Position numbers and translations under genes: made by a program. This document shows, one piece after another, positions 26,261-49,948 of a stretch of DNA of 49,948 bases. Below the pieces are notes generated by a model that was given only the letters and a program-made list of their open reading frames with translations, did no database searches and was not told the DNA's origin. Each line of letters starts with the position of its first letter. Position 1 is the stretch's first letter. The stretch lies in contig CAIUOD010000038.1 of assembly GCA_903900775.1 (NCBI GenBank), positions 1-49,948 on the forward strand, in the 5' to 3' direction. This DNA is from Candidatus Adlerbacteria bacterium. Its GTDB lineage: Bacteria > Patescibacteriota > Minisyncoccia > Phycocordibacterales > SBAW01.

Positions 26261-26296
26261 CTTCGCTTGGCGTATCGTAGGGAGGTTCGCACCCAT

Positions 26297-26378
26297 GCCC
26301 GGGTGGTGAAATTGGTATACACGTATCCTTGAGGTGGATATGCCGAAAGGTGTGGAGGTTCAAGTCCTCTCCCGGGCA
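26297..26378 (+). tRNA. tRNA-Leu (anticodon GAG)
   Basis: gcccggg...tatcc-ttGAGgt-ggata, a 13-nt variable arm, then ggagg-ttcaagt-cctct-cccgggc-a. 82 nt. Confidence 0.9.
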
Positions 26379-26512
26379 CAGATTTAGTAGAATTAGTTTA
26401 AATATTTTTTATCCCCGCTTCGCAAAGAAAGAGGGGATTGTAGGCGTGCTAGAGTTGAGGTGTTATTTGGGTGCGTATTAAAAATGTTTTGTAATAACCA
26501 CATTTAATAATT

Positions 26513-27385: not shown

Positions 27386-27404
27386 CGCGACTACCCCTCT
27401 GGTG

Positions 27405-28850: not shown

Positions 28851-28872
28851 GTGTTTATTCTAGCTTATACTA

Positions 28873-29925: not shown

Positions 29926-30140
29926 GTTGTCTAACGGTCTTCTATCGCAGTGTTCTGGAGCGGAATCACGTTCCTGCAATATGTAAGCGTTGCAAGATTA
30001 GTGATAAGCGGTTGCTCGCGGTACACCACATAGATCAGAATCGAAAAAATAATATAGTTAAAAATCTCACGCGGCTCTGTCATAATTGCCACCACCTCGT
30101 TCATCGATATCCGGACGAGCGAAAGAAAATACGTTTTTGA
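29856..30140 (+). CDS. small HNH endonuclease, possibly a 5'-truncated remnant
   Basis: Complete HNH core CKRCK..LAVHHIDQNRKNN..NLTRLCHNCHHLVH. The only in-frame start is a TTG at 29856, which overlaps the cax 3' end by 70 nt. No ATG/GTG/TTG lies between the cax stop and the core. Low-GC patch. Confidence 0.45.
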   Translation: MARGRPTPGRLRNYGGGVFLPSVGCLTVFYRSVLERNHVPAICKRCKISDKRLLAVHHIDQNRKNNIVKNLTRLCHNCHHLVHRYPDERKKIRF

Positions 30141-30174
30141 GTTAATATGTGGTATAAAAACAGCGTTCATTCAT

Positions 30175-30250
30175 GGTGGTCGTAGCTCAACGGTAGAGCC
30201 CTGGTTTGTGGTACCAGTTGTTGTGGGTTCGAATCCCATCGACCACCCCA
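30175..30250 (+). tRNA. tRNA-His (anticodon GTG) with encoded G-1 and CCA
   Basis: g(-1)-gtggtcg-ta-gctc-aacggta-gagc-c-ctggt-ttGTGgt-accag-ttgtt-gtggg-ttcgaat-cccat-cgaccac-c-cca. Confidence 0.9.
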
Positions 30251-37849: not shown

Positions 37850-38599
37850 GTGGAGGTTTTGCCCATACATCTGCCGCCGCTTGTGCCACCCAAGGACGAT
37901 TTGCTGGGGAAGATTTTTGCATCAAAGATTCGGCTCAAAGACGGCGACGTTCTCGCGATTTCTTCTAAAGTGGTGAGTATTGGCGAGGGGCGCTGCGTGC
38001 CTACTTCTTCAATCACCAAAGAAGAGTTGATTAAAAAAGAGGCAAAACTTTTCTATGCGCCGAAAGAGACTGAAAAGTGGGGTTATCAGTTCACTATCAC
38101 ACACGGCGTCTTGTGTGGCAGCGCGGGTATCGACCAGAGCAACGGTAACGAGCATTTTATTTTATGGCCAAAAGACCCGATGCGTTCAGCAAAAGTTGTG
38201 CGTCTCGCGCTCATGAAGCACTATCATCTTAAAAAATTCGGCGTCGTTATTACCGACTCGACCAGTCGGCCACTACGCCGCGGAGCGATGGGCTTCGCGC
38301 TCGCGTGGGCCGGTATTGATCCTCTTTATGACTATCGTGGCACGAAGGATATTTTTGGCCGCGCCATCCGCGTTGAGCAAGCCAACATGATAGACGGCCT
38401 CGCCGCCGCCGCGGTCCTCATGATGGGGGAGGGAGCGGAGCAGACACCGCTGGCGCTCATCCGCAATGCCCCAACACATCTGTGGAAGAGCCGCCACACG
38501 AGCCTTGGATGGAATAAACTAATCGTGCCGCTCAAAGACGATCTCTTTGCGCCGTTTCTCCTACGCGCCAAGTGGCAAAAAGGCAAAGGGAAGAAATAA
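37850..38599 (+). CDS. CofE-like gamma-glutamyl ligase family protein (F420-0:gamma-glutamyl ligase fold); putative folate-related ligase
   Basis: ..LKDGDVLAISSKVVSIGEGRCV.., ..SAGIDQSN.., ..VVITDSTSRPLRRGAMGFALAWAGI.. follow the CofE/F420_ligase pattern. GTG start at 37850. It is adjacent to folA. Confidence 0.7.
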   Translation: MEVLPIHLPPLVPPKDDLLGKIFASKIRLKDGDVLAISSKVVSIGEGRCVPTSSITKEELIKKEAKLFYAPKETEKWGYQFTITHGVLCGSAGIDQSNGNEHFILWPKDPMRSAKVVRLALMKHYHLKKFGVVITDSTSRPLRRGAMGFALAWAGIDPLYDYRGTKDIFGRAIRVEQANMIDGLAAAAVLMMGEGAEQTPLALIRNAPTHLWKSRHTSLGWNKLIVPLKDDLFAPFLLRAKWQKGKGKK

Positions 38600-38616
38600 T
38601 TTTATTTTTGCCGCGG

Positions 38617-39117
38617 TTATTTCTCTAAATCAACCCACGAATATTTCAAACCGTTCCATTCGCGCGCCTCTTCAGCAATTTTTTTGGTGAAAATATATTC
38701 GTAGGCGGGGAAGTAAGCGTCGCCCTCTTTTTCATCATCAATCAAGGTGAGGTAGAGACGATTAGCCAAGGGTAATCCTTGTGCATAGGTCAAAGCGCCG
38801 CCGATGATAAAAATTTCTTCGCCGTCTATCGCACTCGCTTTTGCTATCGCGTCTTCTATTGAAACGGCAGTCATGGCGCCGTCGTGGTGCCAGGAGGCTT
38901 TATCCGAGATGACGATGTTGGTGCGGCCGGGGAGTGGCTTGCCTAAGGTGGAGAGAATCGAATGGAAGGTGTTATAGCCCATAATGACCGGATGGCCCAA
39001 AGTGAGCTGTTTAAATCGCTTGAGATCGTCCGGGATAGGCCACAGAAGCTGGTTTTTTAGGCCGATAACGCGGTTTTGGCCTAAGGCGGCAATCATGCTG
39101 ATGCGCGATTTTTGCAT
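38617..39117 (-). CDS. folA: dihydrofolate reductase
   Basis: ISMIAALGQNRVIGLKNQLLWPIPDDLKRFKQLTLGHPVIMGYNTFHSI..GRTNIVIS.. is canonical DHFR. Confidence 0.9.
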   Translation of the reverse strand: MQKSRISMIAALGQNRVIGLKNQLLWPIPDDLKRFKQLTLGHPVIMGYNTFHSILSTLGKPLPGRTNIVISDKASWHHDGAMTAVSIEDAIAKASAIDGEEIFIIGGALTYAQGLPLANRLYLTLIDDEKEGDAYFPAYEYIFTKKIAEEAREWNGLKYSWVDLEK

Positions 39118-39144
39118 ATATTCGCCTTAGTGTACACTAGGCCC

Positions 39145-39819
39145 ATGCAGTCCTACGAGGTTGAGGTGAAGTCTCTGCTCGGGAATCCCGAGCGCGCCGA
39201 AGTTCTGCGTGCGCGTCTGCGCGAGCTCGACCCCGCGGTAAAAATTCTTTCGCGTAATAAACAGCTCAATCATTATTTTGTCGGCGGTAATATTGCGGCG
39301 TTAGCACAAGCGACCGATGCGCACCTCTCGACCCAAGCGAAAGTAAAGATAGACGATCTTGCTGCGCGGGCTAAAGAATTTTCCGTTCGCACGCGCGAGA
39401 AAGACGGCGAGGTACTCCTGGTAGTGAAGTGTTCGGTGGGGGATGACACCAGCGCCAATGGCGTGGCGCGCATGGAGTTTGAAGAAAAGGTGTCGCTCGC
39501 GTTGCTCGAACTCGACCAGCTCGTTCTCTCGGCCGGCTTTGACTATCAAGCCAAATGGTCGCGCGAGCGCGAAGAGTATCTCTGCCGCGACATCAACATC
39601 TGCCTCGACCGCAATGCCGGCTACGGCTGGCTGGCCGAGTTTGAGAAGGTGGTGGAGGCTGAAGCGGAGGTCGCGCTCGCGCGCCAAGAGATAGCCGCGC
39701 TCATGGCGGAATGTGGGGCCTCGGAGCTCCCGCAGGATCGGCTCGAGCGGATGTTCGCGTTCTATAATGCGCATTGGCCGGAGTATTATGGGACGGAGAA
39801 TATTTTTATTATTGAATAA
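39145..39819 (+). CDS. CYTH-domain (triphosphate tunnel metalloenzyme, CyaB-like) protein
   Basis: N-terminal EVEVK (ExExK), acidic/basic strand pattern ..SVRTRE.., ..RMEFEEK.., ..KWSREREEY.., ..GYGWLAEFEKVV.. The start was taken at the ATG at 39145. Confidence 0.6.
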   Translation: MQSYEVEVKSLLGNPERAEVLRARLRELDPAVKILSRNKQLNHYFVGGNIAALAQATDAHLSTQAKVKIDDLAARAKEFSVRTREKDGEVLLVVKCSVGDDTSANGVARMEFEEKVSLALLELDQLVLSAGFDYQAKWSREREEYLCRDINICLDRNAGYGWLAEFEKVVEAEAEVALARQEIAALMAECGASELPQDRLERMFAFYNAHWPEYYGTENIFIIE

Positions 39820-39831
39820 TCAAAAACGAAT

Positions 39832-40416
39832 ATGTTTCTCTCTGATGTCGATATAGCGAAAGGGGTCAAAAACGGCGAGATCACACTCACCCCTTTCGAC
39901 GAGGCGCGCCTTGGGCCAGCCAGCTATGATATTTTGTTGGGCAACACGTTTCTTTTAAACGACGAATACACGGCCGCGATAATTGACCCAGTAAAAAAGA
40001 TTTACGCGCAGACGCGTGAGGTACGTGTGAAAGATGGTGATGAGTTCATCTTGCGCCCTGGCATCTCGGTGCTCGGTTCCTCCAAAGATTTTTTTGGCTC
40101 GGACGCGCTCTTGATACAACTTAGTGGCAAGTCATCTTTGGCGCGCGTGGGGCTGATGATCCACAACACCGCTGGTATTGTGAACCCGGGGCATTTCCTC
40201 AACATTACGCTTGAAATAACCAACCAAAATAACATCCCAATAGTCCTGCGCCCCGGCATGAAAATCGCACAGATAACCTTCTCGACCCTGTCGTCGCTAC
40301 CGAAACAAAATTATCGAAAAACTGGCCGTTTTGCCAAGGATAACTGGAAGCATTTTGTATCCGAAAAGGCGGTACCAAAAAAGCAGAAAAAAATTATTAG
40401 AAAAATTAAAAAATAA
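39832..40416 (+). CDS. dcd: dCTP deaminase (possibly bifunctional dCTP deaminase/dUTPase type)
   Basis: MFLSDVDIAKGVKNGEITLTPFDEARLGPASYDILLG.. and ..SSLARVGLMIHNTAG.. are typical Dcd blocks. Confidence 0.9.
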   Translation: MFLSDVDIAKGVKNGEITLTPFDEARLGPASYDILLGNTFLLNDEYTAAIIDPVKKIYAQTREVRVKDGDEFILRPGISVLGSSKDFFGSDALLIQLSGKSSLARVGLMIHNTAGIVNPGHFLNITLEITNQNNIPIVLRPGMKIAQITFSTLSSLPKQNYRKTGRFAKDNWKHFVSEKAVPKKQKKIIRKIKK

Positions 40417-40417
40417 T

Positions 40418-41383
40418 ATGGCACAACACCCCGAGCAGCAGTATTTGGATCTTCTTGCACAGGCACTTGATCACGGCGAAGAGCAGGTGGATAAAGGGAC
40501 CGGGGTGAAAACCTATAGTTTGTTCGGCGCGCAAATGCGTTTTGATTTGTCAGAAGGTTTCCCGCTTTTGACGACTAAAAAAGTATACTGGAGCGGCGTC
40601 CTACACGAACTATTCTGGTTTCTTTCGGGGCAGAGCAATATTAAATACTTAGTGGATAACAAGGTACACATTTGGGACGATTATCCATACAAAATTTATA
40701 AAGAAAAATCTGACAAAGGCGAAGTCCCTGCGCTTACCAAAGATGAATTTATAGCGCAGATAGCGGCGGATGCGTCTTTTGCAGAAAAGTTTGGTGAACT
40801 GCGCCACATTTATGGCGAACATTGGCGTCGGTGGGAGGCAAAAGATGGCCGCAAGGTAGATCAGCTCGGCTGGGTGATCGACGAACTTCGCAAGGATCCA
40901 GATGCACACAATACGCTCGTGACCTCGTGGAATCCGGAGTATCTGTACGCAATGGCCCTCCCCGGGGAAGGCGTGCGGTTTCCTATTTGTCACAATCTTT
41001 ACCAGGTGAACATTAAACACGGCAAGGTGTGTCTGCAGCTCTACCAGCGCAGTGCGGACATCTTCCTCGGCGTGCCATTTAACATCGCAAGCTACGCGCT
41101 ACTCACGGTCGTTATCGCGAAGATCCTCGGTCGAGAGCCAGGAGAGTTTATCCACACGTTCGGCGATTTCCACATCTACGAAAACCATATTGAACAGGTT
41201 AAAGAACAGCTCTCACGCGCTCCGCGACCGTTCCCAACCCTCAAAATAGAAGGGGAAGTGCCGACGCTCGATTCATTTATTACAGGGCAAGTAAAGCTTG
41301 AAGGATATGATCCGCACCCACCCATTAAAGCGGAACTGACCGTTTCAGGTGGCTACAATGAAAAGATGCACAAGAAGGTATGA
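40418..41383 (+). CDS. thyA: thymidylate synthase ThyA (321 aa, with an internal insertion)
   Basis: ..YLDLLAQALDHGEEQVDKGTGVKTYSLFGAQMRFDLSEGFPLLTTKKVYWSGVLHELFWFLSG.., the catalytic-Cys region ..FPICHNLYQV.., and ..QRSADIFLGVPFNIASYALL.. The ATG at 40418 lies 1 nt after the dcd stop. Confidence 0.95.
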   Translation: MAQHPEQQYLDLLAQALDHGEEQVDKGTGVKTYSLFGAQMRFDLSEGFPLLTTKKVYWSGVLHELFWFLSGQSNIKYLVDNKVHIWDDYPYKIYKEKSDKGEVPALTKDEFIAQIAADASFAEKFGELRHIYGEHWRRWEAKDGRKVDQLGWVIDELRKDPDAHNTLVTSWNPEYLYAMALPGEGVRFPICHNLYQVNIKHGKVCLQLYQRSADIFLGVPFNIASYALLTVVIAKILGREPGEFIHTFGDFHIYENHIEQVKEQLSRAPRPFPTLKIEGEVPTLDSFITGQVKLEGYDPHPPIKAELTVSGGYNEKMHKKV

Positions 41384-41823
41384 ACAAAGAATTTGAGAGT
41401 CGGGCGACGTTTCGATCGGCGGCTTTCTTAGTGCTCAAAAAAGACGGCAAAGTGCTTCTCTCCAAGCGAATCAATACGTCGCACGAGGACGGCAACTACG
41501 GTCTCGTAGCCGGGCATCTCGAAAAAGGGGAGACCCCACAGGAGGCAATTGTGCGCGAAGCCAAAGAAGAGATCGGATTAGATATTAAAGAAGAAGATCT
41601 CGAAGTGGTGCACGTGTCGTTCAATCAGTCCGAACTTGATTACTTTCAAATTTATCTCACGCCTAAAAAATGGCAGGGTGAGGTAGAAAATAGGGAGCCA
41701 GAAAGATGCGCCGACCTCGCATGGTTTGCCGAAGACAGCTTGCCGCCCAACACCATAAAATACATCGCCTTTGTGCTCGGGAAAATTAAAGAAGGAGTCA
41801 TGTATAGCAATTTTGGCAAGTAG
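41380..41823 (+). CDS. NUDIX hydrolase
   Basis: Nudix box GHLEKGETPQEAIVREAKEEIGL. ATGA overlap with the thyA stop. Confidence 0.8.
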   Translation: MNKEFESRATFRSAAFLVLKKDGKVLLSKRINTSHEDGNYGLVAGHLEKGETPQEAIVREAKEEIGLDIKEEDLEVVHVSFNQSELDYFQIYLTPKKWQGEVENREPERCADLAWFAEDSLPPNTIKYIAFVLGKIKEGVMYSNFGK

Positions 41824-41888
41824 GATATACTCATTTTATGATCTAACGGTTTCTCGGCGACGCTTATTTGATTAACCAGAGCCAAGCT

Positions 41889-43157
41889 ATGGATTCCTAT
41901 ACCCACATACAACAACAAGACCCCGAGGTGTTCGGGACACTCCAGGGCGAAGAGGAGCGCGAGCGCGACGGGCTCGAACTCATCCCGTCGGAGAATTATG
42001 TCTCGAGAGCGGTGCGCGAGGCGCAGGGTTCGATCTTCACCAACAAATATTCCGAAGGCTATCCGCACAAGCGCTACTACGGCGGGCAGATGTTCACCGA
42101 CTCGGTCGAGGAGATTGCGATCGCGCGCGCCAAAAAGCTTTTTGGCGCGAGCTTCGCCAATGTCCAGCCGCACGCCGGCGCCAACGCCAACATCGGCATG
42201 TACTTCGCGCTACTCCAGCCCGGCGACACGGTGCTCGGCATGGATCTCTCCCACGGCGGGCACTTGACCCACGGCCACCCGGTGACCTACATCACCAAAT
42301 TCTTCAACTTCGTGCGCTATAAAATGAAGGATGCCGATACCGGCGAAATAGATTACGACGAGATGTTGGTGGTCGCGAAAGAGCACAAGCCTAAAATTGT
42401 GCTGGCAGGATTCTCGGCCTACTCGCGCGAATTGGATTACGAAAAATTTGTCGCCATTGCGCGCGAGGTGGGCGCGTATGCCGTCATCGACATTGCGCAC
42501 ATCGCGGGGCTCATCGCGGGGAAGGCCGTGAAGAACCCATTCGATTACGGCTTTGACGTCATGACCTCAACCACGCACAAAACCCTGCGCGGGCCGCGCG
42601 GCGGGCTCATCCTCACGCGCGAGTCCGAGGAGATCGCCAAAAAAATAGACAAAGCGGTTTTCCCGGGGCTCCAAGGCGGGCCGCTCATGCACGTGGTGGC
42701 AGCAAAAGCGGTGGCTTTTGGCGAAGCGCTTGAGCCTCAATTCAAAACCTACGCGGCGCAAATTCTCAAAAACGCCAAAGCGATGGAAGAAGTGCTACAC
42801 GCCCATAATGTGCGCATGCTCGGCGGGGGCACCTCCAACCACCTCATCTTGGCCGACGTCTTCGGCTCGCTCGGCATCCCGGGGCAAGAGGCAGAGGTAG
42901 TGCTCGACCGCGTCGGTATCACGCTCAACAAAAATACGATTGCCGATGATACACGCAAGCCGATGGACCCTTCCGGCATCCGCTTTGGCACGCCGGCCAT
43001 CACGACACGCGGCTTCAAAGAAAAAGAGTGCGCGCAGGTGGCTGAGCTCATGCTCGGGGCGCTTGCTTCTCGTGCGGATGACGCGAAGCTCGAGAAAATC
43101 CATCAAGAGATAAAAACACTGGCCGCACAGCACCCCATTCCCGATTCGTTCAATTAA
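41889..43157 (+). CDS. glyA: serine hydroxymethyltransferase
   Basis: ..LELIPSENYVSRAVREAQGS..TNKYSEGYPHKRYYGG.., PLP-Lys region ..MTSTTHKTLRGPRGG.. The ATG at 41889 was preferred over the TTG at 41868. Confidence 0.95.
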   Translation: MDSYTHIQQQDPEVFGTLQGEEERERDGLELIPSENYVSRAVREAQGSIFTNKYSEGYPHKRYYGGQMFTDSVEEIAIARAKKLFGASFANVQPHAGANANIGMYFALLQPGDTVLGMDLSHGGHLTHGHPVTYITKFFNFVRYKMKDADTGEIDYDEMLVVAKEHKPKIVLAGFSAYSRELDYEKFVAIAREVGAYAVIDIAHIAGLIAGKAVKNPFDYGFDVMTSTTHKTLRGPRGGLILTRESEEIAKKIDKAVFPGLQGGPLMHVVAAKAVAFGEALEPQFKTYAAQILKNAKAMEEVLHAHNVRMLGGGTSNHLILADVFGSLGIPGQEAEVVLDRVGITLNKNTIADDTRKPMDPSGIRFGTPAITTRGFKEKECAQVAELMLGALASRADDAKLEKIHQEIKTLAAQHPIPDSFN

Positions 43158-43173
43158 GCGCTACAATGCCCTC

Positions 43174-44292
43174 ATGAAAGGGTGGGGGAAGAAAGTGCTT
43201 CACTTTTGGCAACAGTATAGCCGGCCTATTAACTTGGTCTCCTTGGCCGCGGGTTTTTGTTTTGATCTCTATTTGGCTAAGCGCCCCGACTCGCTACCGG
43301 ACAATATTCTACTCTTGAGCTACCTTGCTCTTTCGGCGGTTATTATCACACTCCTTAATGTTCGCTCACGGCGTGCGATGGAGCGCGAAAGCCCGACCGA
43401 GCCGCTCCTCCTCCTACTCGTCTTGCAGTTTTGCTTTGGAGGTCTCGCGAGCAACTTGCTTATTCTCTACGGCCACAGCGGCACGATAGGGGGCAGTCTC
43501 TTTTTTGTCGCACTTTTGGCCGGCTTCGCCTTGGGGAACGAATTCCTCAAGAGTCGCTATGCACAACTGCGCTTTAACATCGCGGTCTATTATTTTCTTC
43601 TCCTGACCTACTGCGTTATCGCGGTGCCGACCTTTATCCTGCACGATATCGGCTGGCAGGCGTTTTTGTGGAGCACTGCCGCAAGCGCTGGCGTGATGGC
43701 CATCTTCCTTGCCATCCTCTTGCTCTCGCTCTCCGAACGTGACCGCGTGCGGAATATGTACGAAATAATCGGCATCGTGCTCGGCACACTGTGCGTCTTT
43801 AATCTTCTCTACTGGGGCAATATTATCCCGCCGGTGCCGCTCTCGCTCAAAAATATCGGTGTGTACCATTCGCTCGCGGCGCTCCCACAGCCCGATACCT
43901 CAGGCGCGATTTATGCGGCTAGCTACGAGCCATCCCTGTGGTATATCTTTTGGCGCGATACCTCTGCGACCTACACCTTCGCGCCGAGCGACTCGCGCAG
44001 GGCCTACTGCTTTAGTGCCGTCTTCGCGCCGGGTGGGCTCTCGACTCCCATCGAGCATCGATGGGAAGAGTACGATACTACAGCCAAAAAATGGCAAACG
44101 GTTTCTCTGGTCTCGTTCCCTATAAACGGTGGGCGCACCGAGGGTTATCGTGGCTATAGTGTTGAAGAAAATCTCTCGCCAGGGCAGTGGCGCTGTGATG
44201 TGGAGACCGACAAAGGTCAACTCATCGGCCGCATCTCCTTTGATGTGGTGCAAAGCTCAGCCACTCCCGCGCTCTCGACAACGGCGCTCTAG
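43174..44292 (+). CDS. polytopic membrane protein with C-terminal DUF2914-like domain
   Basis: About 8 TM helices, then ..GGRTEGYRGYSVEENLSPGQWRCDVETDKGQLIGRISFDVV, the pattern I associate with DUF2914. Confidence 0.55.
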   Translation: MKGWGKKVLHFWQQYSRPINLVSLAAGFCFDLYLAKRPDSLPDNILLLSYLALSAVIITLLNVRSRRAMERESPTEPLLLLLVLQFCFGGLASNLLILYGHSGTIGGSLFFVALLAGFALGNEFLKSRYAQLRFNIAVYYFLLLTYCVIAVPTFILHDIGWQAFLWSTAASAGVMAIFLAILLLSLSERDRVRNMYEIIGIVLGTLCVFNLLYWGNIIPPVPLSLKNIGVYHSLAALPQPDTSGAIYAASYEPSLWYIFWRDTSATYTFAPSDSRRAYCFSAVFAPGGLSTPIEHRWEEYDTTAKKWQTVSLVSFPINGGRTEGYRGYSVEENLSPGQWRCDVETDKGQLIGRISFDVVQSSATPALSTTAL

Positions 44293-44310: not shown

Positions 44311-46062
44311 ATGCGAGACGAAATCGGAAAAGCATTGAAAGAGGCACTTAAAACACTAGGCGCGTCCAAGGCAGCGTTTGCCCTGGAGCGGTCGGACACG
44401 TTTGAACACGGCGACTATGCGACCAATGCGGCACTTATTGCCGCAAAAATACTTAAGAAAAATCCCAAGGAAGTTGCTGAAGCACTTAAAAAAGAGTTAG
44501 AGGGCAAAATCGAAGGCGTTAGAAAAATAGAAGTTGCCGGCGCGGGATTCATCAACTTTTTTCTATCCGACCAAGTGCTTAACAAAACGCTCCGCGACAT
44601 TATCTCGGCCGGTGATACGTGGGGGAGCGCGCCAAAAATAAAAGAGCGGTGGTTAATCGAGCACACTTCGCCTAACCCCAACAAGGCGATGCATATTGGG
44701 CACCTGCGCAATAACATCACCGGCATGGCCATCGCCAACATCGCCGAGTTCCGCGGGGTCGAGGTTATCCGCGACTGTATAGACAACAACCGCGGCATCG
44801 CGATAGCTAAGCTCATGTGGGGCTATGTAAAATTTGCCCACCGAGGCGGCACACCAATTGAAGACATTTCGTATTGGCACGAGCATCAGGGAGAGTGGCA
44901 AACTCCCGAAGAGATGGATATGCGCCCCGATCGTTTTGTTGACGCGCTCTATGTGCAGGGGTCAGAAGATTTCGAACACAGCCTCGATGTGGAGAAAAAA
45001 GTCCGCCAGATGGTGGTCGATTGGGAGCATAAAGAAAAAATAGTATGGGAGCTGTGGGAGAAAGTGCTCGCGTATTCGTACGCGGGCCAGCGCATGACTC
45101 TCGGGCGTTTGGGAAATAAATGGGATCGCGTATGGCATGAGCACGAGCACTATCAAGAGGGAAAAAATTTGGTAGAAGACGGTCTGCGCAAGGGCGTATT
45201 CAAAAAATTAGAAGACGGTGCGGTGCTGACCAACCTGGCCGCCTATAACTTGCCGGACACCATCGTGATGAAGTCGGATGGCACCTCATTGTATATTACC
45301 CAAGACATCGCGCTCACGCGACTTAAACGCGACACCTATCATCCCGACAGATTATTTTGGGTGATCGGTCCTGAACAGACGCTGGCGCTCAAGCAGGTTT
45401 TTGCGGTCTGCGAACAGCTCGGCATCGGCAAGTATACCGACTATACGCACATTTCCTACGGCTATATGAGTTTGAAAGGCGAGGCTAAAATGAGCTCCCG
45501 CAAGGGTAACGTGCTTTTTATTGATGATCTCATCGATCAAGTGAAAGAGTCGGTGAAAGATCTTCTGAAAGAGGCGGAACTTCCGGCCAGCAAGATTGAA
45601 ACGATCGCTGAAGAAGTTGCTGTGGGGGCGGTAAAATTTGGGATTCTAAAAGTGGGGCGCAACTCTAGCATCGTCTTTGATGTCGAGCGAGCGACCGACT
45701 TGCACGGCGACACGGGCCCGTATGTGCAGTACGCCCACACTCGAACCTGCTCACTGCTCAAGCACGCCGAGGGGAAGGGTATGAAAAGTGAAGTTATTGA
45801 AGACGCTGAAGCAAATGAGGTGGTGCGACTTCTCGCGCATTTTCCCAACGTCGTTGAGCGCTCGAATAGTGAACTCGAACCACACTATATCGCGACGTAT
45901 CTGCTTGAGCTCGCGAGCCTCTTCAGCCGATGGTATGCCGACGTGCATATTTTAGATGACGCATCCGACAGGGGACATAAAATTGCTATTGTTGATGCCG
46001 TGCGCATAACCCTCGGCAACGGCTTGCGTTTGCTTGGCATCCCGGCACCGGAGGAGATGTAA
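44311..46062 (+). CDS. argS: arginyl-tRNA synthetase
   Basis: ..EHTSPNPNKAMHIGHLRNN.. (HIGH), ..KMSSRKGN.. and a C-terminal DALR anticodon-binding domain. Confidence 0.95.
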   Translation: MRDEIGKALKEALKTLGASKAAFALERSDTFEHGDYATNAALIAAKILKKNPKEVAEALKKELEGKIEGVRKIEVAGAGFINFFLSDQVLNKTLRDIISAGDTWGSAPKIKERWLIEHTSPNPNKAMHIGHLRNNITGMAIANIAEFRGVEVIRDCIDNNRGIAIAKLMWGYVKFAHRGGTPIEDISYWHEHQGEWQTPEEMDMRPDRFVDALYVQGSEDFEHSLDVEKKVRQMVVDWEHKEKIVWELWEKVLAYSYAGQRMTLGRLGNKWDRVWHEHEHYQEGKNLVEDGLRKGVFKKLEDGAVLTNLAAYNLPDTIVMKSDGTSLYITQDIALTRLKRDTYHPDRLFWVIGPEQTLALKQVFAVCEQLGIGKYTDYTHISYGYMSLKGEAKMSSRKGNVLFIDDLIDQVKESVKDLLKEAELPASKIETIAEEVAVGAVKFGILKVGRNSSIVFDVERATDLHGDTGPYVQYAHTRTCSLLKHAEGKGMKSEVIEDAEANEVVRLLAHFPNVVERSNSELEPHYIATYLLELASLFSRWYADVHILDDASDRGHKIAIVDAVRITLGNGLRLLGIPAPEEM

Positions 46063-46092: not shown

Positions 46093-49000
46093 ATGGCAGA
46101 GATCCTCAAAGAGTCGCCGAAGGGTGACGCGGCCAAACGCGAGGAAGAAGTGCTCGCGTTTTGGAAGGAACAAAAGATCTTTGAACAGTCGCTCGAAAAG
46201 CCCGCACCTAAAGGCGACTATGTTTTTTATGACGGGCCGCCGTTCGCCACCGGCCTGCCACATACCGGCTCGCTTTTGGCCTCGGTCATTAAAGATGTCA
46301 TTCCGCGCTTTAAAACAATGCAGGGCTATCACGTGCCGCGGGTATGGGGCTGGGACTGCCACGGGCTCCCGATTGAAAACTTGGTCGAGAAAAAACTTGG
46401 CCTCAAGTCAAAAAAAGATATTCTCTCCGTAGGCATTGATACCTTCAACGAGACGGCGCGCTCGCTCGTTTTGCAGTATGTCGTCGATTGGGAAAAGTAT
46501 GTCGACCGCATCGGCCGGTGGGTGGATTTCAAAAACTCCTACAAGACGATGGATAATTCCTACATCGAGAGCGTATGGTGGGCGCTTAAAGAACTCAATA
46601 AAAAGAACCTGCTCTACGAAGGCCGACGCGTGCTCATGTACTGCACCCACTGCGAGACGCCCTTGGCCAAAGCCGAAATTGCCGCCGACAATACCTATAA
46701 GGATATTACCGAAGAGGCGGTAACGATAGAATTTAAACTAAAAGGGGATGAGCAGACGCGCGTGCTTGCCTGGACAACCACACCGTGGACGCTCCCCGGG
46801 AATGTTGCGCTCGCAGTCAACCTCGAAACCACGTACGTCACGCTTGAGAAAAAGGACGAAGGCGTGGGGCCGCTGGTGCGCTTCATTCTCGCGAAAGAAC
46901 GGATTGAGGCAGTGTTTGGTGACAGCGAATTTTCTATAGTAAAAGAGCAAAAAGGTAAAGAGTTAGTCGGTCTCGAGTATGAGCCGCTGTACGACATACC
47001 GGCCCTGCGTTCAAAAAATTCCTACAAAATATATGCGGCCGACTTTGTCACCACCGACGAAGGCACGGGTGTGGTGCACACGGCGGTCATGTATGGCGAA
47101 GACGACTACGTGCTGGGGCTTAAAGAAAAGTTGCCACTGGTGCAGATGCTCAACCCCAACGGCACCTACAACGATGAAGCGCCGGAGTTGGTGCGCGGCG
47201 AATACATTAAAAAAGCCGAAGAAAAAATAAAAACAGACTTAAGCGCGCGCGGCTTGCTTTTTGAGAAAAAAATGCACACGCACTCGTACCCACACTGCTG
47301 GCGCTGTGGCACCCCGCTCATCTACAACGCGGTGCCGTCGTGGTTCGTCAATATACAAAAAATAAAAGCGCGGATGCTCGCGGAAAACGAAAGAATAACC
47401 TGGGTGCCGGGGCACCTCAAACACGGGCGTTTCCAAAAAATTGTCGAGAGTGCTCCTGACTGGACGATCTCGCGCAACCGCTTTTGGGCTTCGCCTCTGC
47501 CGATATGGAAGGAGAAGGGAGGGAAGGGCCTCATAGTCGTGGGTTCTCTCGATGAATTGTTAACCAAAACAAAAAAATCTGGTAACCGCTACTTTGTGAT
47601 GCGGCATGGCGAAGCATTGAGTAATCTGCACAACGTCGTTGACTGCGGCGCTGATATAGAAAATCACCTCACGCCGGTGGGTAAAGCAGGGGTTGCGCAC
47701 ACGGGCGCGCAACTTAAGCGCGAGCATATAGACCTCATCATCATGTCGCCGGTCTTGCGCACACGAGAGACGGCCGCGCTCGTGCAAAAAGAACTTGGCC
47801 TGCCAGACTCGGCCGTCATGGTGGACGAGCGCCTGCACGAACTGCGCTTCGGTGTGTATGAGGGAAAAAGTTTGGAGGCCTGGGCCTGTTCCGCGACATT
47901 CCGTGAACGATTTGGCCAAGGGGTCGAGGGCGGGGAGTCGTATACGGATGTCCGCCGGCGCGTCGGAGATTTTCTCTTTGAGATGGAGCGGCGCTATGCG
48001 GGCAAACGCATCCTCTTGGTGACTCACGATTGTCCGGCGTGGCTTTTAGCAAGCGTGGCAGAACATAAAACGGCAGAAGAAATAATTACCGAAGACGATG
48101 GGACGCCGTATCTCACCCCCGGTGACTATACCGAAATTTCGTTTGTGCCGTTTCCGCACAATAAAAACTTTGAGCTCGACCTGCATCGCCCGTATATCGA
48201 CTCGATAGTACTTACCGACGCGCGCGGCAACACCTATGAACGCATACCCGAGGTGGTGGACTGCTGGGTTGAGTCCGGCGCGATGCCCTTTGCTTCGGTG
48301 GGCTATCCGCGTGATATCTCGCGCGTGAACCCCGGGCGGTTCTTTGGATTATTCCCCAAACGCTATCCGGCGGATTTCATCGCCGAATATATCGGGCAAA
48401 CACGCACCTGGTTTTATTATCTGCATGCCGTTGGGGTAGCGTTGTTTAATAAGACCTCCTTCCGCGCGGTAGCGGTGACGGGGAATATTCTGGCGGCCGA
48501 CGGATCCAAAATGAGCAAGTCGAAGGGTAACTATACCGACCCGATGGAGCTCATGAATCGTTTTGGGGCGGACGCACTCCGGCTGGCACTTATGGGGAGC
48601 GTGGTCATGGCAGGAGAAGATTTTAACTTTCGTGATGAAGAGGTGCGTGAAGCCTCGCGCCCACTCGGCGTCTTGTGGAATTCCTGCCAATTTTTCGCAC
48701 TCTATCGAGATAAGTGGGACGCCTCGGTTGACGCGGAGAAAAGTCCGCACATTCTTGACCGGTGGATGCTCGCACGCCTCGAAAGACTGGTGCGGGATGT
48801 TACCGTGGCACTTGAACATTTTGACACACCCGGGGCATGCCGGGCTCTGCGTGAAGGCATCGATGATTACTCAACCTGGTATGTGCGCCGCTCGCGCGAG
48901 CGCGTGCGCGGCACCGATGCCGCCGATATGCGCTTTACCTTGGCACTCCAGCGGCGCGTCTTGCTCGACTTTGCAAAACTGCTGGCCCCCATCACGCCCT

Positions 49001-49554
49001 TTCTGGCCGAGAGCATCTACCGCGAACTTAGGGGAGGAGAGGCGAGTGTGCATCTTGAATCGTGGCCCATGACCCTGCCTGAATCAAAGGGCGAGCAGAA
49101 ACTCTTGGACGATATGGTGCTCGTACGCACCGCGGTCTCTTTGGCGCTCCAGGCACGCGAGAAAGCGGGCATAAAAATCCGCCAGCCGCTCGGGCTCCTT
49201 TCTGTTCATCCGAGCATTTTCCCCGCGGGCGAACATAGTTCGGCATATTTGGAAATTGTGGGCGAAGAAATAAATGTAAAAAAAGTTGAGCTCTCGGATA
49301 CGGTCGACGTAACGACACTCGTGGCGCTCGACACCACGCTCACGCCGGAGCTCAAAGAAGAAGGGCTCGTGCGCGACTTCGTGCGCCGCATCCAGGCATG
49401 GCGCAAAGACGAAGGATTGGTTATCGCCGACCGGCCAGCCTACGAACTGGTCGTTTCAAAAGAAGAAGAATCGATTGCGAAGCAAAACAGCGACGCCATC
49501 ATGGCGGCCGCCGGGCTCTCGGCGCTCACGGTAACTTTGAGAAAAGATGCATAA
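46093..49554 (+). CDS. ileS: isoleucyl-tRNA synthetase (eukaryote-like/type 2 architecture) carrying a nested histidine-phosphatase domain
   Basis: ..YDGPPFATGLPHTGSLL.. (HIGH position reads HTGS), WDCHGLP, the CP1/editing region, WTISRNRFWASPLPIW, DLHRPYID, VVDCWVESGAMPFA and KMSKSKGN. One uninterrupted 1153-aa frame. Confidence 0.95.
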   Translation: MAEILKESPKGDAAKREEEVLAFWKEQKIFEQSLEKPAPKGDYVFYDGPPFATGLPHTGSLLASVIKDVIPRFKTMQGYHVPRVWGWDCHGLPIENLVEKKLGLKSKKDILSVGIDTFNETARSLVLQYVVDWEKYVDRIGRWVDFKNSYKTMDNSYIESVWWALKELNKKNLLYEGRRVLMYCTHCETPLAKAEIAADNTYKDITEEAVTIEFKLKGDEQTRVLAWTTTPWTLPGNVALAVNLETTYVTLEKKDEGVGPLVRFILAKERIEAVFGDSEFSIVKEQKGKELVGLEYEPLYDIPALRSKNSYKIYAADFVTTDEGTGVVHTAVMYGEDDYVLGLKEKLPLVQMLNPNGTYNDEAPELVRGEYIKKAEEKIKTDLSARGLLFEKKMHTHSYPHCWRCGTPLIYNAVPSWFVNIQKIKARMLAENERITWVPGHLKHGRFQKIVESAPDWTISRNRFWASPLPIWKEKGGKGLIVVGSLDELLTKTKKSGNRYFVMRHGEALSNLHNVVDCGADIENHLTPVGKAGVAHTGAQLKREHIDLIIMSPVLRTRETAALVQKELGLPDSAVMVDERLHELRFGVYEGKSLEAWACSATFRERFGQGVEGGESYTDVRRRVGDFLFEMERRYAGKRILLVTHDCPAWLLASVAEHKTAEEIITEDDGTPYLTPGDYTEISFVPFPHNKNFELDLHRPYIDSIVLTDARGNTYERIPEVVDCWVESGAMPFASVGYPRDISRVNPGRFFGLFPKRYPADFIAEYIGQTRTWFYYLHAVGVALFNKTSFRAVAVTGNILAADGSKMSKSKGNYTDPMELMNRFGADALRLALMGSVVMAGEDFNFRDEEVREASRPLGVLWNSCQFFALYRDKWDASVDAEKSPHILDRWMLARLERLVRDVTVALEHFDTPGACRALREGIDDYSTWYVRRSRERVRGTDAADMRFTLALQRRVLLDFAKLLAPITPFLAESIYRELRGGEASVHLESWPMTLPESKGEQKLLDDMVLVRTAVSLALQAREKAGIKIRQPLGLLSVHPSIFPAGEHSSAYLEIVGEEINVKKVELSDTVDVTTLVALDTTLTPELKEEGLVRDFVRRIQAWRKDEGLVIADRPAYELVVSKEEESIAKQNSDAIMAAAGLSALTVTLRKDA
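47581..48168 (+). other. inserted histidine phosphatase superfamily (branch 1, PGAM/SixA/CobC-like) domain within ileS
   Basis: Residues ~497-692: RYFVMRHGEALSN (RHG), LTPVGKAG, IIMSPVLRTRETA, LHELRFGVYEGKS, GGESYTDV and ILLVTHDCPAW (second catalytic His). The blocks are in the canonical order and spacing of this fold. Confidence 0.7.
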
Positions 49555-49948
49555 AATTTTTATCACGCGAGGGTTGGTACTCGGCAAGCGCGCGGCGGGG
49601 GAGGCGAACATTATCGCGCTCGTGCTCTGTGATGAGTTGGGGTTCGTGCGTGGTCGCGCGCAGAGCGCGCGGCTGGAGCGCTCAAAGCTGCGCTATGGGC
49701 TCGAGTCGCTCTCGCGTGGGCGCTTCACTTTTGTACGCGGGCGGCACGAGTGGCGGCTTATCGGCTCCTGTGAGCTCAGCCACGACTGCATCGCTCCCAC
49801 AACACCAGGTCGTGCCTCGGGGAGAGCGCGTGCTGGCCGGATAGCCAAATTACTCATGCGGCTGATGCCGGGTGAAGAGCCGGTGCCAGGCTTATTTGGC
49901 GAAGTAGTTGAAGGGCTCCGAGTGCTTGCGCGAGCGCAGGCGGAAGAA
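49547..49948 (+). CDS. recO: DNA repair protein RecO-like, N-terminal part (runs off window)
   Basis: Absent from the ORF track (no stop in window). The ATG at 49547 overlaps the ileS stop. MHKIFITRGLVLGKRAAGEANIIALVLCDELGFVRGRAQSARLERSKLRYGLESLSRGRFTFVRGRHEWRLIG.. fits the RecO OB-fold N-terminal pattern. Confidence 0.55.
   Translation, partial: MHKIFITRGLVLGKRAAGEANIIALVLCDELGFVRGRAQSARLERSKLRYGLESLSRGRFTFVRGRHEWRLIGSCELSHDCIAPTTPGRASGRARAGRIAKLLMRLMPGEEPVPGLFGEVVEGLRVLARAQAEE

What the first reader, a model, noticed from the sequence alone, without database searches (positions are those of the whole stretch)
47560..48180. Histidine-phosphatase (PGAM-like) domain nested inside an otherwise intact isoleucyl-tRNA synthetase
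Seen: ileS (46093-49554) is a single open frame of 1153 aa. It keeps the class I catalytic blocks, CP1/editing region, KMSKSKGN and the anticodon-binding C-terminus. Between WTISRNRFWASPLPIW..VGSLDELLTKTKK and FELDLHRPYID..VVDCWVESGAMPFA it carries about 195 extra residues. From my memory of family alignments, canonical IleRS has only a few tens of residues between these two blocks. The extra residues contain every signature block of histidine phosphatase superfamily branch 1, in canonical order: RYFVMRHGEALSN, LTPVG, SPVLRTRETA, ELRFGVYEGKS, GGESYTDV and LLVTHDCP. Established: the RHG His is the phospho-acceptor of dPGM/SixA/CobC-type enzymes. The second His, the two Arg and the GES/Glu complete the active site, so the insert looks catalytically competent rather than a decayed relic. 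Inference: this is a second enzymatic activity grafted into the aminoacylation domain. I am not aware of any described aaRS with this architecture. Plausible roles, all speculative, are removal of phosphorylated nucleotide by-products (Ap4A-type), tRNA 3'-end phosphate removal, or phospho-dependent regulation.
Basis: partly seen in the sequence, partly recalled or inferred. Interest (0 to 1): 0.8.

Follow-up and report, generated by a model that had tools for sequence, protein, structure and literature searches.

The report
Phosphatase domain nested inside isoleucyl-tRNA synthetase
In a large group of tiny uncultured bacteria (Patescibacteria/CPR), the enzyme that loads isoleucine onto tRNA has swallowed its neighbouring gene, a complete and apparently active histidine phosphatase, into one of its surface loops; no paper found here describes this, and what the phosphatase acts on is unknown.

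Summary
ORF 46093-49554 encodes a 1153-aa type-2 IleRS. A ~195-200-aa His_Phos_1 domain (Pfam 99.7 bits against a cutoff of 21.7) replaces a 7-8-residue loop of the CP3 subdomain. It is not an assembly artefact: all 120 closest relatives, from independent assemblies, share the architecture. They keep the catalytic residues R504, H505, N511, R556, E583 and H645 in 118-120 of 120.

New here: in sister Paceibacteria the same ~189-aa protein is a separate gene between argS and an insert-less ileS, overlapping it or ending 5 bp upstream. Across 22 loci the phosphatase is either free or nested, never both. The window reads argS-ileS[phosphatase]-recO.

Some IleRS carry tandem copies. ValRS of Gracilibacteria and Peregrinibacteria carry one to four copies, mostly in the homologous CP3 loop.

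The fold resembles compact small-molecule phosphatases (PhoE, CobC, PspA, GpgP). It fails every NCBIfam equivalog cutoff, including dPGM. The substrate is unknown.

My best inference is an accessory phosphohydrolase working with the synthetase. The main rival is an unrelated phosphatase occupying a permissive loop. Four literature searches found no description.

The parts
46093..49554 (+). ileS: 1153-aa type-2 (eukaryote-like) isoleucyl-tRNA synthetase carrying the nested domain
   Evidence: ORF. TIGR00392 scores 796 bits against a cutoff of 621. The best PDB sequence and fold matches are S. cerevisiae IleRS, P. megaterium IleRS2 and T. thermophilus IleRS.
47572..48141 (+). Nested histidine phosphatase (aa 494-683). 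This span aligns end to end, Met to last residue, with the free-standing ~189-aa proteins of sister lineages.
   Evidence: Alignment A2, 29-40% identity over the full length. The Pfam His_Phos_1 core is aa 501-662, nt 47593-48078. The AF2 model of the domain alone has pLDDT 92.6.
47602..47607 (+). R504-H505 of the RHG motif (H505 is the predicted phospho-acceptor)
   Evidence: R is kept in 119/120 and H in 120/120 homologs.
47623..47625 (+). N511, conserved Asn after the RHG loop
   Evidence: 118/120.
47758..47760 (+). R556 (SPxxR motif), second phosphate-binding Arg
   Evidence: 120/120.
47839..47841 (+). E583 (DERLxE motif), predicted general acid
   Evidence: 120/120.
48025..48027 (+). H645, second active-site His
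   Evidence: 119/120.
47452..47490 (+). CP2-CP3 linker APDWTISRNRFWA (aa 454-466). The homologous segment of yeast IleRS lines the tRNA-A76/reveromycin pocket.
   Evidence: Sequence. Homology to Sc 453-ARDWNVSRNRYWG-465 from the alignment and PMC7955072.
47491..47571 (+). N-terminal arm of CP3 (aa 467-493, SPLPIWKEKGGKGLIVVGSLDELLTKT). Relatives have a CxxC here; this protein has none.
48142..48258 (+). C-terminal arm of CP3 (aa 684-722, FVPFPHNKNFELDLHRPYID...ERIPEVV). Relatives have the second Cys pair here; this protein has none.
   Evidence: Alignment to 8wnd resumes at aa 695.
46261..46272 (+). Class I 'HIGH' signature, here H-T-G-S
   Evidence: HxGS in 102 of 120 close relatives. Distant insert-bearing IleRS and the insert-less L015 enzyme have HYGH.
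48508..48522 (+). KMSKS signature (aa 806-810)
   Evidence: Sequence. K806, S808, K809 and S810 are invariant in A1.
44311..46062 (+). argS (ArgRS), the upstream syntenic neighbour, 30 bp before ileS. In sister lineages the free-standing phosphatase gene sits in this gap.
   Evidence: Pfam tRNA-synt_1d, DALR_1 and Arg_tRNA_synt_N. Synteny.
49547..49948 (+). recO (5' part, runs off the window), the downstream syntenic neighbour. It overlaps the ileS stop by 8 nt.
   Evidence: Open frame. RecO_N E 2e-9. Synteny.

Best explanation
SHOWN. The window's ileS encodes a type-2 IleRS. A complete ~190-aa PhoE/CobC-like histidine phosphatase is nested in its CP3 subdomain, between the two halves of what is a CxxC...CxxC zinc knuckle in relatives. 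In sister Paceibacteria the same protein is a separate gene wedged between argS and ileS, either overlapping ileS or ending 5 bp upstream of it. In the window's lineage that coding region lies in frame inside ileS instead, and the free copy is gone. The nested domain keeps the full catalytic set (Arg-His nucleophile pair, Asn, second Arg, Glu, second His) under strong purifying selection.

INFERRED. The domain is an active phosphohydrolase that works as an accessory activity of the synthetase, first as an operon partner and then as a tethered domain. Its attachment point is about 25 residues from the linker that lines the adenylate/tRNA-A76 pocket.

My committed guess for the chemistry is removal of a terminal phosphate from a small-molecule ligand or product of the synthetic site. 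Candidates are pyrophosphate or adenine-nucleotide side products such as p4A or ADP. This would pull or clean up the adenylation reaction. I put this specific substrate class at only about 0.25.
For: Identity and site:
- establish the IleRS and the nested domain.
- PMC7955072 and PMC7191050 define CP3 and the CP2-3 linker.

Reality and breadth:
- All 120 best homologs (55-64% identity; NCBI, JGI, ENA and Logan; contigs up to 722 kb) have PF00133 plus PF00300.
- In an exhaustive scan of 1.84 billion representatives, 93 of the best 150 matches to the insert are IleRS with identical junctions, down to 33-40% core identity.

Activity:
- R504 119/120, H505 120/120, N511 118/120, R556 120/120, E583 120/120, H645 119/120. 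The insert overall is 48.5% identical among these relatives.
- Every tandem copy examined in IleRS keeps the set.
- The models are confident.
- Foldseek neighbours are PhoE, PspA, GpgP, CobC and HFP at TM 0.72-0.80.

Origin and coupling:
- Free-standing proteins of 188-196 aa align end to end with the insert.
- In four independent lineages the order is argS-HP-ileS(no insert)-recO, with a 5-bp gap or a 7-nt overlap between HP and ileS.
- Across the window plus 21 loci there is exactly one HP per locus, either free or nested.
- Intermediates keep CxxC...CxxC around the nested domain.

Specificity of the association:
- Among the best 150 relatives the only hosts are IleRS, one ValRS and one TsaC.
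- About 70 of 119 ValRS relatives from Gracilibacteria and Peregrinibacteria carry the domain. 73 of 83 mapped copies sit in the homologous post-'W-ISR' CP3 loop.
Against: - No substrate or activity was tested, and the geometry of the phosphatase pocket relative to the aminoacylation site could not be computed because model coordinates are not exposed.
- From my own knowledge, branch-1 histidine phosphatases are known as phosphomonoesterases or mutases, not pyrophosphatases.
- Tandem arrays of 2-4 copies and use of both CP2 and CP3 in ValRS fit poorly with a precisely positioned channelling device.
- About 40% of ValRS-nested copies lack the Glu and/or the second His.
- The same ValRS loops also host an unrelated DUF559 domain, so these loops are simply permissive.
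- The conserved operon also contains recO, which has no obvious link to aminoacylation.
- Two insert-less valS loci have no adjacent phosphatase gene.
- The TsaC fusion, which motivated the 'common product PPi' argument, is a single protein on one 3.7-kb contig.
Confidence: 0.5

Rival explanations
1. Hitch-hiking in a permissive loop. The phosphatase is an ordinary housekeeping small-molecule phosphatase with no mechanistic link to aminoacylation. It happened to lie upstream of ileS, and rearrangement placed it in CP3, which is a variable surface subdomain that tolerates insertions. The fusion persists because it is harmless and guarantees co-expression in a streamlined genome.
For: - CP3 differs in topology among solved IleRS structures (PMC7191050).
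- Patescibacteria ValRS also carry nested DUF559 and a C-terminal HU-like domain.
- NCBIfam has a separate 'ileS_w_GNAT' model, so IleRS can host other enzymes.
- Tandem arrays of 2-4 copies occur, and two different loops are used in ValRS.
- Fold neighbours are generic metabolite phosphatases.
- The operon includes the unrelated recO.
Against: - Among the best 150 relatives of the insert out of 1.84 billion representatives, the only hosts are IleRS (93), ValRS (1) and TsaC (1); no unrelated host protein appears.
- The same domain family was captured in the homologous loop of a second class Ia synthetase in other lineages.
- The free form overlaps ileS or ends 5 bp from it in four lineages, and free and nested states are strictly complementary.
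- On the IleRS core tree the two states are interleaved, which suggests repeated events (crude NJ tree).
Confidence: 0.27
2. Divergent glycolytic phosphoglycerate mutase. The domain is the 'missing' PGM of some Parcubacteria clades, riding on IleRS.
For: - His_Phos_1 is the dPGM superfamily.
- S. pombe dPGM (1fzt, 211 aa) shows that a small dPGM is possible, and it appears among the sequence and fold hits.
Against: - The domain fails all dPGM equivalog models by a wide margin: dPGM_arch 69.6 against 225, PRK01295 29.4 against 316, PRK14115 16.5 against 305.
- The motif after the catalytic Glu is ELRFG, not the dPGM ERHYG (sequence; the dPGM motif is from my own knowledge).
- The best fold matches are phosphatases, not mutases.
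- Gracilibacteria, whose ValRS carry the domain, include a complete genome that lacks glycolysis entirely (PMC7304191).
Confidence: 0.07
3. tRNA-end or macromolecular phosphatase. The domain removes a 3'- or 2'-phosphate from damaged tRNA ends before charging, or it dephosphorylates a protein (SixA/PGAM5-like), possibly IleRS itself.
For: - The attachment point follows the linker that lines the tRNA A76 pocket.
- The domain is compact at about 190 aa.
- The known hosts all belong to tRNA pathways.
Against: - No SixA, PGAM5 or Sts structure is among the 50 listed fold matches. SixA scores 31.5 against a cutoff of 74.5.
- The window's domain is acidic (net -9, pI 5.5), more so than its host. This is a weak argument, because charge tracks genome GC.
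- From my own knowledge, no branch-1 member is known to act on RNA ends.
Confidence: 0.1
4. Non-catalytic structural or regulatory module. The domain replaces the Zn knuckle as a scaffold for CP3, or it senses a phosphometabolite to tune aminoacylation, without turning over substrate.
For: - The window's subclade has lost all four Zn-ligand cysteines (121 of 132 parsed insert-bearing IleRS have none).
- 32 of 81 ValRS-nested copies lack the Glu and/or the second His.
Against: - In IleRS all six catalytic positions are kept in 118-120 of 120, while the domain overall has drifted to about 48% identity.
- Eight distant IleRS keep both the Zn knuckle and the nested domain, so the domain is not merely a replacement for it.
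Confidence: 0.05
5. Artefact (chimeric assembly or frameshift) or a recent selfish, intein-like mobile insertion.
For: The only hint is a modest rise in GC across 47600-48050 (0.58-0.60 against 0.51-0.53 upstream).
Against: - The same junctions occur in hundreds of independent assemblies.
- The ORF is continuous and the window has no Ns.
- There are no flanking direct repeats.
- GC3 of the insert is 0.615, within the range of the host genes (0.596-0.649).
- Pfam finds only His_Phos_1 in the insert, with no intein or endonuclease.
Confidence: 0.01

Closest known systems
Type-2 / eukaryote-like IleRS (P. megaterium IleRS2 8C8V, S. cerevisiae IleRS 8WND/7D5C, T. thermophilus IleRS 1ILE)
   Same: The overall fold and domain order match: Rossmann fold, CP core, CP1 editing, CP2, CP3, anticodon-binding and C-terminal domains. 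phmmer gives E about 1e-190 and Foldseek E 5e-71, with TM 0.66-0.83. KMSKS and the CP2-3 linker motif are conserved.
   Different: None of the solved enzymes has anything but a 7-8-residue connection at the site where this protein has a ~190-aa phosphatase. HIGH reads HTGS here. The CP3 zinc ligands present in T. thermophilus and in insert-less Paceibacteria IleRS are absent.
Compact branch-1 histidine phosphatases: PhoE (1H2E), PspA (4IJ5/4IJ6), GpgP Rv2419c (4PZ9), CobC (6E4B/6NRU), HFP (9MMH)
   Same: The alpha/beta fold matches (TM 0.72-0.80), the size is about 190-210 aa, and the R-H-G / R / E / H catalytic constellation is shared.
   Different: Identity is only 21-24%. Scores are far below each family's NCBIfam cutoff. 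All of those enzymes are free-standing metabolic enzymes. This one is nested in, or translationally coupled to, a tRNA synthetase.
Free-standing Patescibacteria His_Phos_1 proteins encoded between argS and ileS (for example P0286, P0283, P0380 and the L017 ORF)
   Same: They align with the insert from Met to the C-terminus at 29-40% identity. They share subfamily-specific residues (N-x-Y before RHG, DxRLxE, GE-Y) and the same genomic neighbourhood.
   Different: They are separate polypeptides, and their partner IleRS keeps a CxxC...CxxC CP3. Sources name them only as 'broad specificity phosphatase PhoE', 'histidine phosphatase family protein' or 'putative phosphoglycerate mutase'. The names give no sign of experimental study.
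NCBIfam NF040702 'isoleucine--tRNA ligase, N-acetyltransferase domain-containing' (ileS_w_GNAT)
   Same: It is a precedent for an IleRS carrying an extra enzymatic domain inside the chain.
   Different: The extra domain is different (GNAT, not a histidine phosphatase). Judging from the profile coordinates of the partial matches, the position is also different, near the CP1 region. The window protein scores 326 bits against a cutoff of 1999.
Bifunctional RNase H / acid phosphatase (PRK07238, Rv2228c type)
   Same: A His_Phos_1 (CobC-like) domain is fused to a nucleic-acid enzyme. It is the best NCBIfam match for the insert (73 bits).
   Different: That is an end-to-end fusion, not a nested one, with a different partner enzyme. 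The score is far below the cutoff of 326.

Membership tests
Isoleucyl-tRNA synthetase (TIGR00392 equivalog) | Whole-protein score above the curated cutoff | tested here: met
   796 bits against 621.4, in two stretches split by the insert.
Isoleucyl-tRNA synthetase (TIGR00392 equivalog) | Class I signatures HIGH and KMSKS | tested here: inconclusive
   KMSKS is intact at aa 806-810. HIGH reads HTGS, with the second His replaced by Ser. 102 of 120 close relatives have HxGS.
Isoleucyl-tRNA synthetase (TIGR00392 equivalog) | CP1 editing domain and anticodon-binding domain present | tested here: met
   The WTTTPWTLP and GTGVVHTAVMYGEDD motifs are in the sequence. Anticodon_1 E 1.7e-25 and DUF5915 E 3e-15. 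The fold matches IleRS over the whole chain.
Isoleucyl-tRNA synthetase (TIGR00392 equivalog) | Ile-tRNA(Ile) formation | not testable with these tools
   Needs an enzyme assay.
Histidine phosphatase superfamily, branch 1 (Pfam PF00300) | Profile score above the gathering threshold | tested here: met
   99.7 bits within the whole protein and 104.6 bits for the excised segment, against 21.7.
Histidine phosphatase superfamily, branch 1 (Pfam PF00300) | Catalytic core: RHG His nucleophile, two Arg, Glu proton donor, second His | tested here: met
   R504, H505, R556, E583 and H645 are present and kept in 119-120 of 120 homologs.
Histidine phosphatase superfamily, branch 1 (Pfam PF00300) | Alpha/beta fold of the superfamily | tested here: met
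   AF2 pLDDT 92.6. Foldseek probability 1.00 and TM 0.72-0.80 to PhoE, PspA, GpgP and CobC.
Histidine phosphatase superfamily, branch 1 (Pfam PF00300) | Phosphoryl transfer through a phospho-His intermediate | not testable with these tools
   Needs biochemistry.
Cofactor-dependent phosphoglycerate mutase (dPGM) | Score above the NCBIfam equivalog cutoffs | tested here: not met
   dPGM_arch 69.6 against 225, GpmB 44.4 against 261, PRK01295 29.4 against 316, PRK14115 16.5 against 305.
Alpha-ribazole phosphatase CobC (TIGR03162) | Score above the equivalog cutoff | tested here: not met
   65.3 against 162.9.
Phosphoserine phosphatase PspA (NF045917) | Score above the equivalog cutoff | tested here: not met
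   50.9 against 350. It is the best PDB sequence hit, but only at E 3e-8.
Phosphohistidine phosphatase SixA (TIGR00249) | Score above the equivalog cutoff | tested here: not met
   31.5 against 74.5, and only the N-terminal 75 residues align.
IleRS with nested GNAT (NF040702) | Score above the cutoff, with a GNAT domain present | tested here: not met
   326 against 1999. Pfam finds no acetyltransferase domain.
Intein or other mobile in-frame insertion | Hint/intein or homing-endonuclease domain, flanking repeats, foreign composition | tested here: not met
   Only His_Phos_1 is found in the insert. There are no flanking direct repeats. GC3 lies within the host range.

The most novel reading that the evidence does not exclude
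Patescibacteria have a previously unrecognised accessory enzyme for class Ia editing synthetases. It is a dedicated histidine phosphohydrolase that acts on a product, by-product or substrate of aminoacylation, such as pyrophosphate, adenine polyphosphates or a phosphorylated tRNA end.

Its importance is suggested by three observations. It is kept as a translationally coupled partner of ileS. It has been captured, possibly more than once, into the CP3 loop of IleRS, and separately into that of ValRS. In some lineages it is amplified to four copies per chain.

If this is right, it would add a new catalytic step to tRNA charging in a major branch of bacteria.
Probability: 0.3. Interest if true: 0.85.

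Novelty: new variant of a known kind. Interest (0 to 1): 0.68.

Why it matters
Aminoacyl-tRNA synthetases are among the most intensively studied enzymes. From my own knowledge, extra domains in bacterial synthetases are usually tRNA-binding or editing modules, not unrelated catalytic domains buried in the catalytic body. Here a complete second enzyme sits inside CP3 of IleRS across a large clade of Paceibacteria. ValRS of Gracilibacteria and Peregrinibacteria show the same thing in the homologous loop.

Both evolutionary states are available: a separate gene, and the nested domain with or without the ancestral zinc knuckle. That provides three things:
- A natural, stepwise example of a neighbouring gene being internalised into a loop of an essential enzyme.
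- A concrete, testable lead to unknown biochemistry in organisms with minimal genomes and no cultured representatives for most lineages.
- A practical annotation point. These proteins are currently labelled 'class I tRNA ligase family protein'. The free form is labelled 'PhoE' or 'phosphoglycerate mutase', which could mislead metabolic reconstructions of glycolysis in CPR genomes.

Tried and rejected
1. Domain-only NJ tree of nested, free-standing, tandem and ValRS copies. It is star-like, with very short internal branches, so it cannot say whether the nested copies are monophyletic. I did not use it.

2. IleRS-core NJ tree. Insert-less enzymes fall among insert-bearing ones, which suggests repeated fusion or fission. 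The tree is a midpoint-rooted NJ tree with only three insert-less sequences, so I treat it as suggestive only.

3. Charge/pI as a test for RNA binding. Free-standing proteins are very basic and nested ones acidic. However, all neighbouring proteins in the 33-38% GC loci are basic as well, so the signal is compositional and uninformative.

4. TsaC/Sua5-phosphatase fusion (P0208) as a 'Rosetta stone' pointing to PPi. A metagenome scan recovered only matches to the phosphatase half, which proved to be free-standing or IleRS-nested copies. The fusion is one protein on one 3.7-kb contig, so I downgraded it to a weak hint.

5. Adjacent-gene origin for the ValRS inserts. Two insert-less valS loci have no phosphatase gene within 6 kb either side. 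Not supported.

6. Link between the HxGS variant of HIGH and the insert. Distant insert-bearing IleRS keep HYGH, so the variant is a subclade trait.

7. Geometry of the phosphatase pocket relative to the synthetic and editing sites.

8. Literature. Four term combinations returned no papers, and a broader search returned nothing relevant.

9. Mis-assembly or mobile element. Rejected on the basis.


Full report
OBSERVATION

The window has one uninterrupted ORF, 46093-49554 on the + strand, of 1153 aa. It passes the NCBIfam ileS equivalog model (TIGR00392, 796 bits against a cutoff of 621). Pfam finds tRNA-synt_1 in two stretches, Anticodon_1, DUF5915 and, at aa 501-662, His_Phos_1 with E 2e-28 (99.7 bits against a gathering score of 21.7).

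Alignment to solved IleRS structures fixes the boundaries. Query 490->695 corresponds to S. cerevisiae IleRS 489->498, and query 489->691 to P. megaterium IleRS2 474->482. About 200 residues therefore stand where canonical enzymes have 7-8.

The 'HIGH' signature reads HTGS.

NOT AN ARTEFACT, AND NOT UNIQUE

All 120 best homologs carry both the IleRS families and PF00300. They are 55-64% identical to the query, 1007-1205 aa long, and come from NCBI, JGI, ENA and Logan assemblies on contigs up to 722 kb. Where named, they are Candidatus Paceibacterota, Adlerbacteria, Kaiserbacteria, Parcubacteria or Minisyncoccia.

An exhaustive HMMER scan of 1.84 billion cluster representatives with the insert alone gave 5831 hits at E<=1e-3 and 486 at E<=1e-10. 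Of the best 150:
- 93 are IleRS or IleRS fragments. The phosphatase sits at the same junction in all of them, even where the IleRS core has drifted to 33-40% identity.
- One is a ValRS.
- 56 have no synthetase flanks.

Eleven GTDB species genomes with close relatives were also recovered.

In the window there are no Ns and no flanking direct repeats. The insert's GC3 (0.615) lies within the range of the host genes (0.596-0.649).

ANATOMY

By the definitions used for yeast and Candida IleRS, the insertion site lies inside CP3 (Sc residues 459-526). It is about 25 residues after the CP2-3 linker (Sc 453-ARDWNVSRNRYWG-465; here APDWTISRNRFWA), which helps form the tRNA-A76/reveromycin pocket (PMC7955072). 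CP3 varies in topology among IleRSs and carries a zinc motif in T. thermophilus (PMC7191050).

The full-length AlphaFold model is confident (mean pLDDT 86.4, pTM 0.77), with insert blocks at about 84-96. Its best structural matches are IleRS2 and eukaryote-like IleRS. Modelled alone, the domain gives pLDDT 92.6 and pTM 0.89.

Its nearest solved structures are compact small-molecule phosphatases: a mycobacterial hydrolase, HFP, PhoE, GpgP, PspA and CobC. They match at TM 0.72-0.80 and 21-24% identity, and none stands out. No SixA, PGAM5 or Sts structure is among the 50 listed matches. The domain fails every NCBIfam equivalog cutoff, including dPGM, CobC, PspA and SixA.

SELECTION

Across the 120 homologs, identity to the query by region is:
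- N-terminal synthetase part: 71%.
- C-terminal core: 62%.
- Insert: 48.5%.

The catalytic set is nevertheless essentially invariant: R504 119/120, H505 120, N511 118, R556 120, E583 120, H645 119. This is the pattern expected of an active enzyme, not a relic.

ORIGIN

Many of the 56 flank-less hits are complete proteins of about 188-205 aa. A search seeded with one of them found a populous family of ~189-aa proteins in Staskawiczbacteria and other Parcubacteria and Patescibacteria. They align with the insert from their Met to their last residue, at 29-40% identity.

In four independent lineages (L012, L013/L014, L015/L016, L017) this gene lies between argS and an insert-less ileS of 929-987 aa, followed by recO. 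The insert-less ileS passes TIGR00392 at 684 and 878 bits. The phosphatase gene stops 5 bp before the ileS start in L012 and L015 and overlaps it by 7 nt in L017. In L013 a toxin-antitoxin pair and an HD-domain gene have been inserted between the two.

The window has argS (44311-46062), then ileS 30 bp later, then recO starting at 49547.

A tblastn map of ArgRS, IleRS-N, phosphatase, IleRS-C and RecO on the window plus 21 loci shows exactly one phosphatase per locus. It lies between argS and ileS in six loci and inside ileS in fifteen, never both. The remaining locus, L021, has a free-standing copy but ends just after it, so its neighbours cannot be seen. The window itself has no second copy.

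The insert-less enzymes have a CxxC...CxxC (or CxC) zinc-knuckle CP3. Eight distant insert-bearing IleRS keep both cysteine pairs with the phosphatase between them. The window's subclade has lost the cysteines: 121 of 132 parsed sequences have none.

The simplest reading has three steps:
1. The neighbouring gene was internalised into the zinc knuckle of CP3.
2. The free copy disappeared.
3. The zinc ligands later decayed.

On a crude core tree the two states interleave, so this may have happened more than once. That is not established.

VARIANTS AND GENERALITY

Some IleRS carry two tandem copies (P0234; P0264/P0276, 1484 aa), and all of these copies keep the catalytic set.

P0139 is a ValRS with four copies. 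A search seeded with it showed that about 70 of its 119 best ValRS relatives carry PF00300. They are named Gracilibacteria and Peregrinibacteria, sit on contigs up to 1.37 Mb, and range from 965 to 1626 aa. By my mapping, 73 of 83 copies sit after the W-ISR motif and before KMSKS, which is the homologous CP3 loop. Eight sit before the W-ISR motif, in the CP2 region.

In the ValRS copies the R-H pair is always kept. The Glu is kept in only 52 of 81 and the second His in 69 of 81, so 49 of 81 are complete. Some ValRS copies may therefore be impaired.

Two insert-less valS loci have no phosphatase gene nearby. Some of these ValRS also host a nested DUF559 domain or a C-terminal HU-like domain.

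One TsaC/Sua5-phosphatase fusion exists (P0208). It is a single sighting.

MECHANISM

Shown:
- A complete, conserved phosphatase fold and active site.
- Physical nesting next to the linker that lines the synthetic-site entrance.
- Ancestry from a gene tightly coupled to ileS.
- Recurrent association with the two sister editing synthetases.

Inferred:
- The domain is an active phosphohydrolase whose function is tied to the synthetase.

My committed guess is hydrolysis of a terminal phosphate on a small-molecule product or by-product of adenylate chemistry (PPi, p4A or ADP-type species). Three things point this way: the fold neighbours are small-molecule enzymes, these are the phosphate-terminated species generated at that site, and IleRS, ValRS and TsaC all share the ATP -> adenylate + PPi reaction. 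I rate that specific chemistry at only about 0.25.

Four things count against a tight mechanistic coupling:
- Tandem arrays occur.
- Two different loops are used in ValRS.
- Many ValRS copies have partly degenerate active sites.
- The same loops also accept DUF559.

The main rival (0.27) is therefore an unrelated housekeeping phosphatase that hitch-hiked into a permissive loop.

A 'missing PGM' reading is worth noting, because PGM is reported as undetected in some shallow Parcubacteria clades (PMC7304191). The domain fails all dPGM models, however. Gracilibacteria, which carry the ValRS version, include a complete genome without glycolysis.

The tRNA-end or protein-phosphatase role and the purely structural role are less likely, but neither is excluded.

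COMPARISON AND NOVELTY

The host is an ordinary type-2 IleRS and the guest is an ordinary branch-1 histidine phosphatase. The nested combination is the unusual part, along with its neighbour-gene origin, its tandem amplification and its parallel in ValRS.

The closest precedents are the NCBIfam 'ileS_w_GNAT' family (a different domain at a different site) and RNase H/acid-phosphatase fusions (end to end, with a different partner).

The architecture is visible in public databases. Sources label these proteins 'class I tRNA ligase family protein' or 'isoleucyl-tRNA synthetase'. I found no paper describing it in 7.7 million PMC papers and 0.34 million bioRxiv preprints. That library excludes most subscription journals, so the absence is not proof.

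I rate it a new variant of a known kind, with interest 0.68.

Noticed in passing
window 46261-46272 (aa 57-60 of IleRS): The class I 'HIGH' signature reads H-T-G-S. 102 of the 120 close relatives have HxGS, 9 have HxGN and only 8 have HxGH. Distant insert-bearing IleRS and the insert-less L015 enzyme keep HYGH. Loss of the second His of HIGH in a presumably essential IleRS is unusual in itself.
   Followed up: partly
P0139 and P0395-P0513 (ValRS relatives); example locus L024 6001-9210: ValRS of Gracilibacteria and Peregrinibacteria carry one to four nested His_Phos_1 domains. Most sit in the CP3-equivalent loop and some in the CP2 region. Proteins reach 1626 aa. Only 49 of 81 copies keep the full catalytic set.
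   Followed up: partly
P0418 aa 442-548; P0453 aa 262-372; P0427 aa 1072-1124: Some Patescibacteria ValRS also contain a nested DUF559 (endonuclease-like) domain or a C-terminal HU-like DNA-binding domain. P0428, P0422, P0415 and P0457 have 180-300-aa stretches with no Pfam match between known domains.
   Followed up: no
P0208 (387 aa, Logan, one 3.7-kb contig): A TsaC/Sua5 threonylcarbamoyl-AMP synthase (TIGR00057, 146.8 bits against a cutoff of 123.2) is fused at its C-terminus to a phosphatase 36% identical to the window insert. It has been seen only once. In L012 a separate Sua5_yciO_yrdC gene lies about 4 kb downstream of ileS.
   Followed up: partly
L013 8652-9819 and L014 8652-9819: In one lineage an RHH/ParE-type toxin-antitoxin pair and an HD_3 phosphohydrolase gene have been inserted between the free-standing phosphatase gene and ileS, breaking the otherwise tight coupling.
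   Followed up: no
window 49547-49554: The recO start overlaps the ileS stop by 8 nt. argS ends 30 bp before ileS. This suggests a tightly packed argS-ileS-recO operon.
   Followed up: partly
window 37850-44292: A compact cluster for dTMP and folate metabolism lies upstream of argS. In order: an F420-0:gamma-glutamyl ligase-like gene, DHFR (- strand), a CYTH-domain protein, a dCTP deaminase-like gene, thymidylate synthase, NUDIX, SHMT and a DUF2914 protein.
   Followed up: no
window 16116-30247: Eight tRNA genes on both strands lie within about 14 kb (Rfam RF00005, 52-67 bits).
   Followed up: no
alignment of P0001-P0120, region aa 490-695: The insert comes in two length classes: about 199-215 aa (102 sequences) and 171-173 aa (18 sequences). 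The least conserved part is the tail at aa 651-690 (33% identity).
   Followed up: no
literature (PMC7304191): PGM is reported as absent from several shallow Parcubacteria clades, 'possibly too divergent'. Sources label the free-standing phosphatase 'putative/probable phosphoglycerate mutase' in some records, which could mislead glycolysis reconstructions in either direction.
   Followed up: partly
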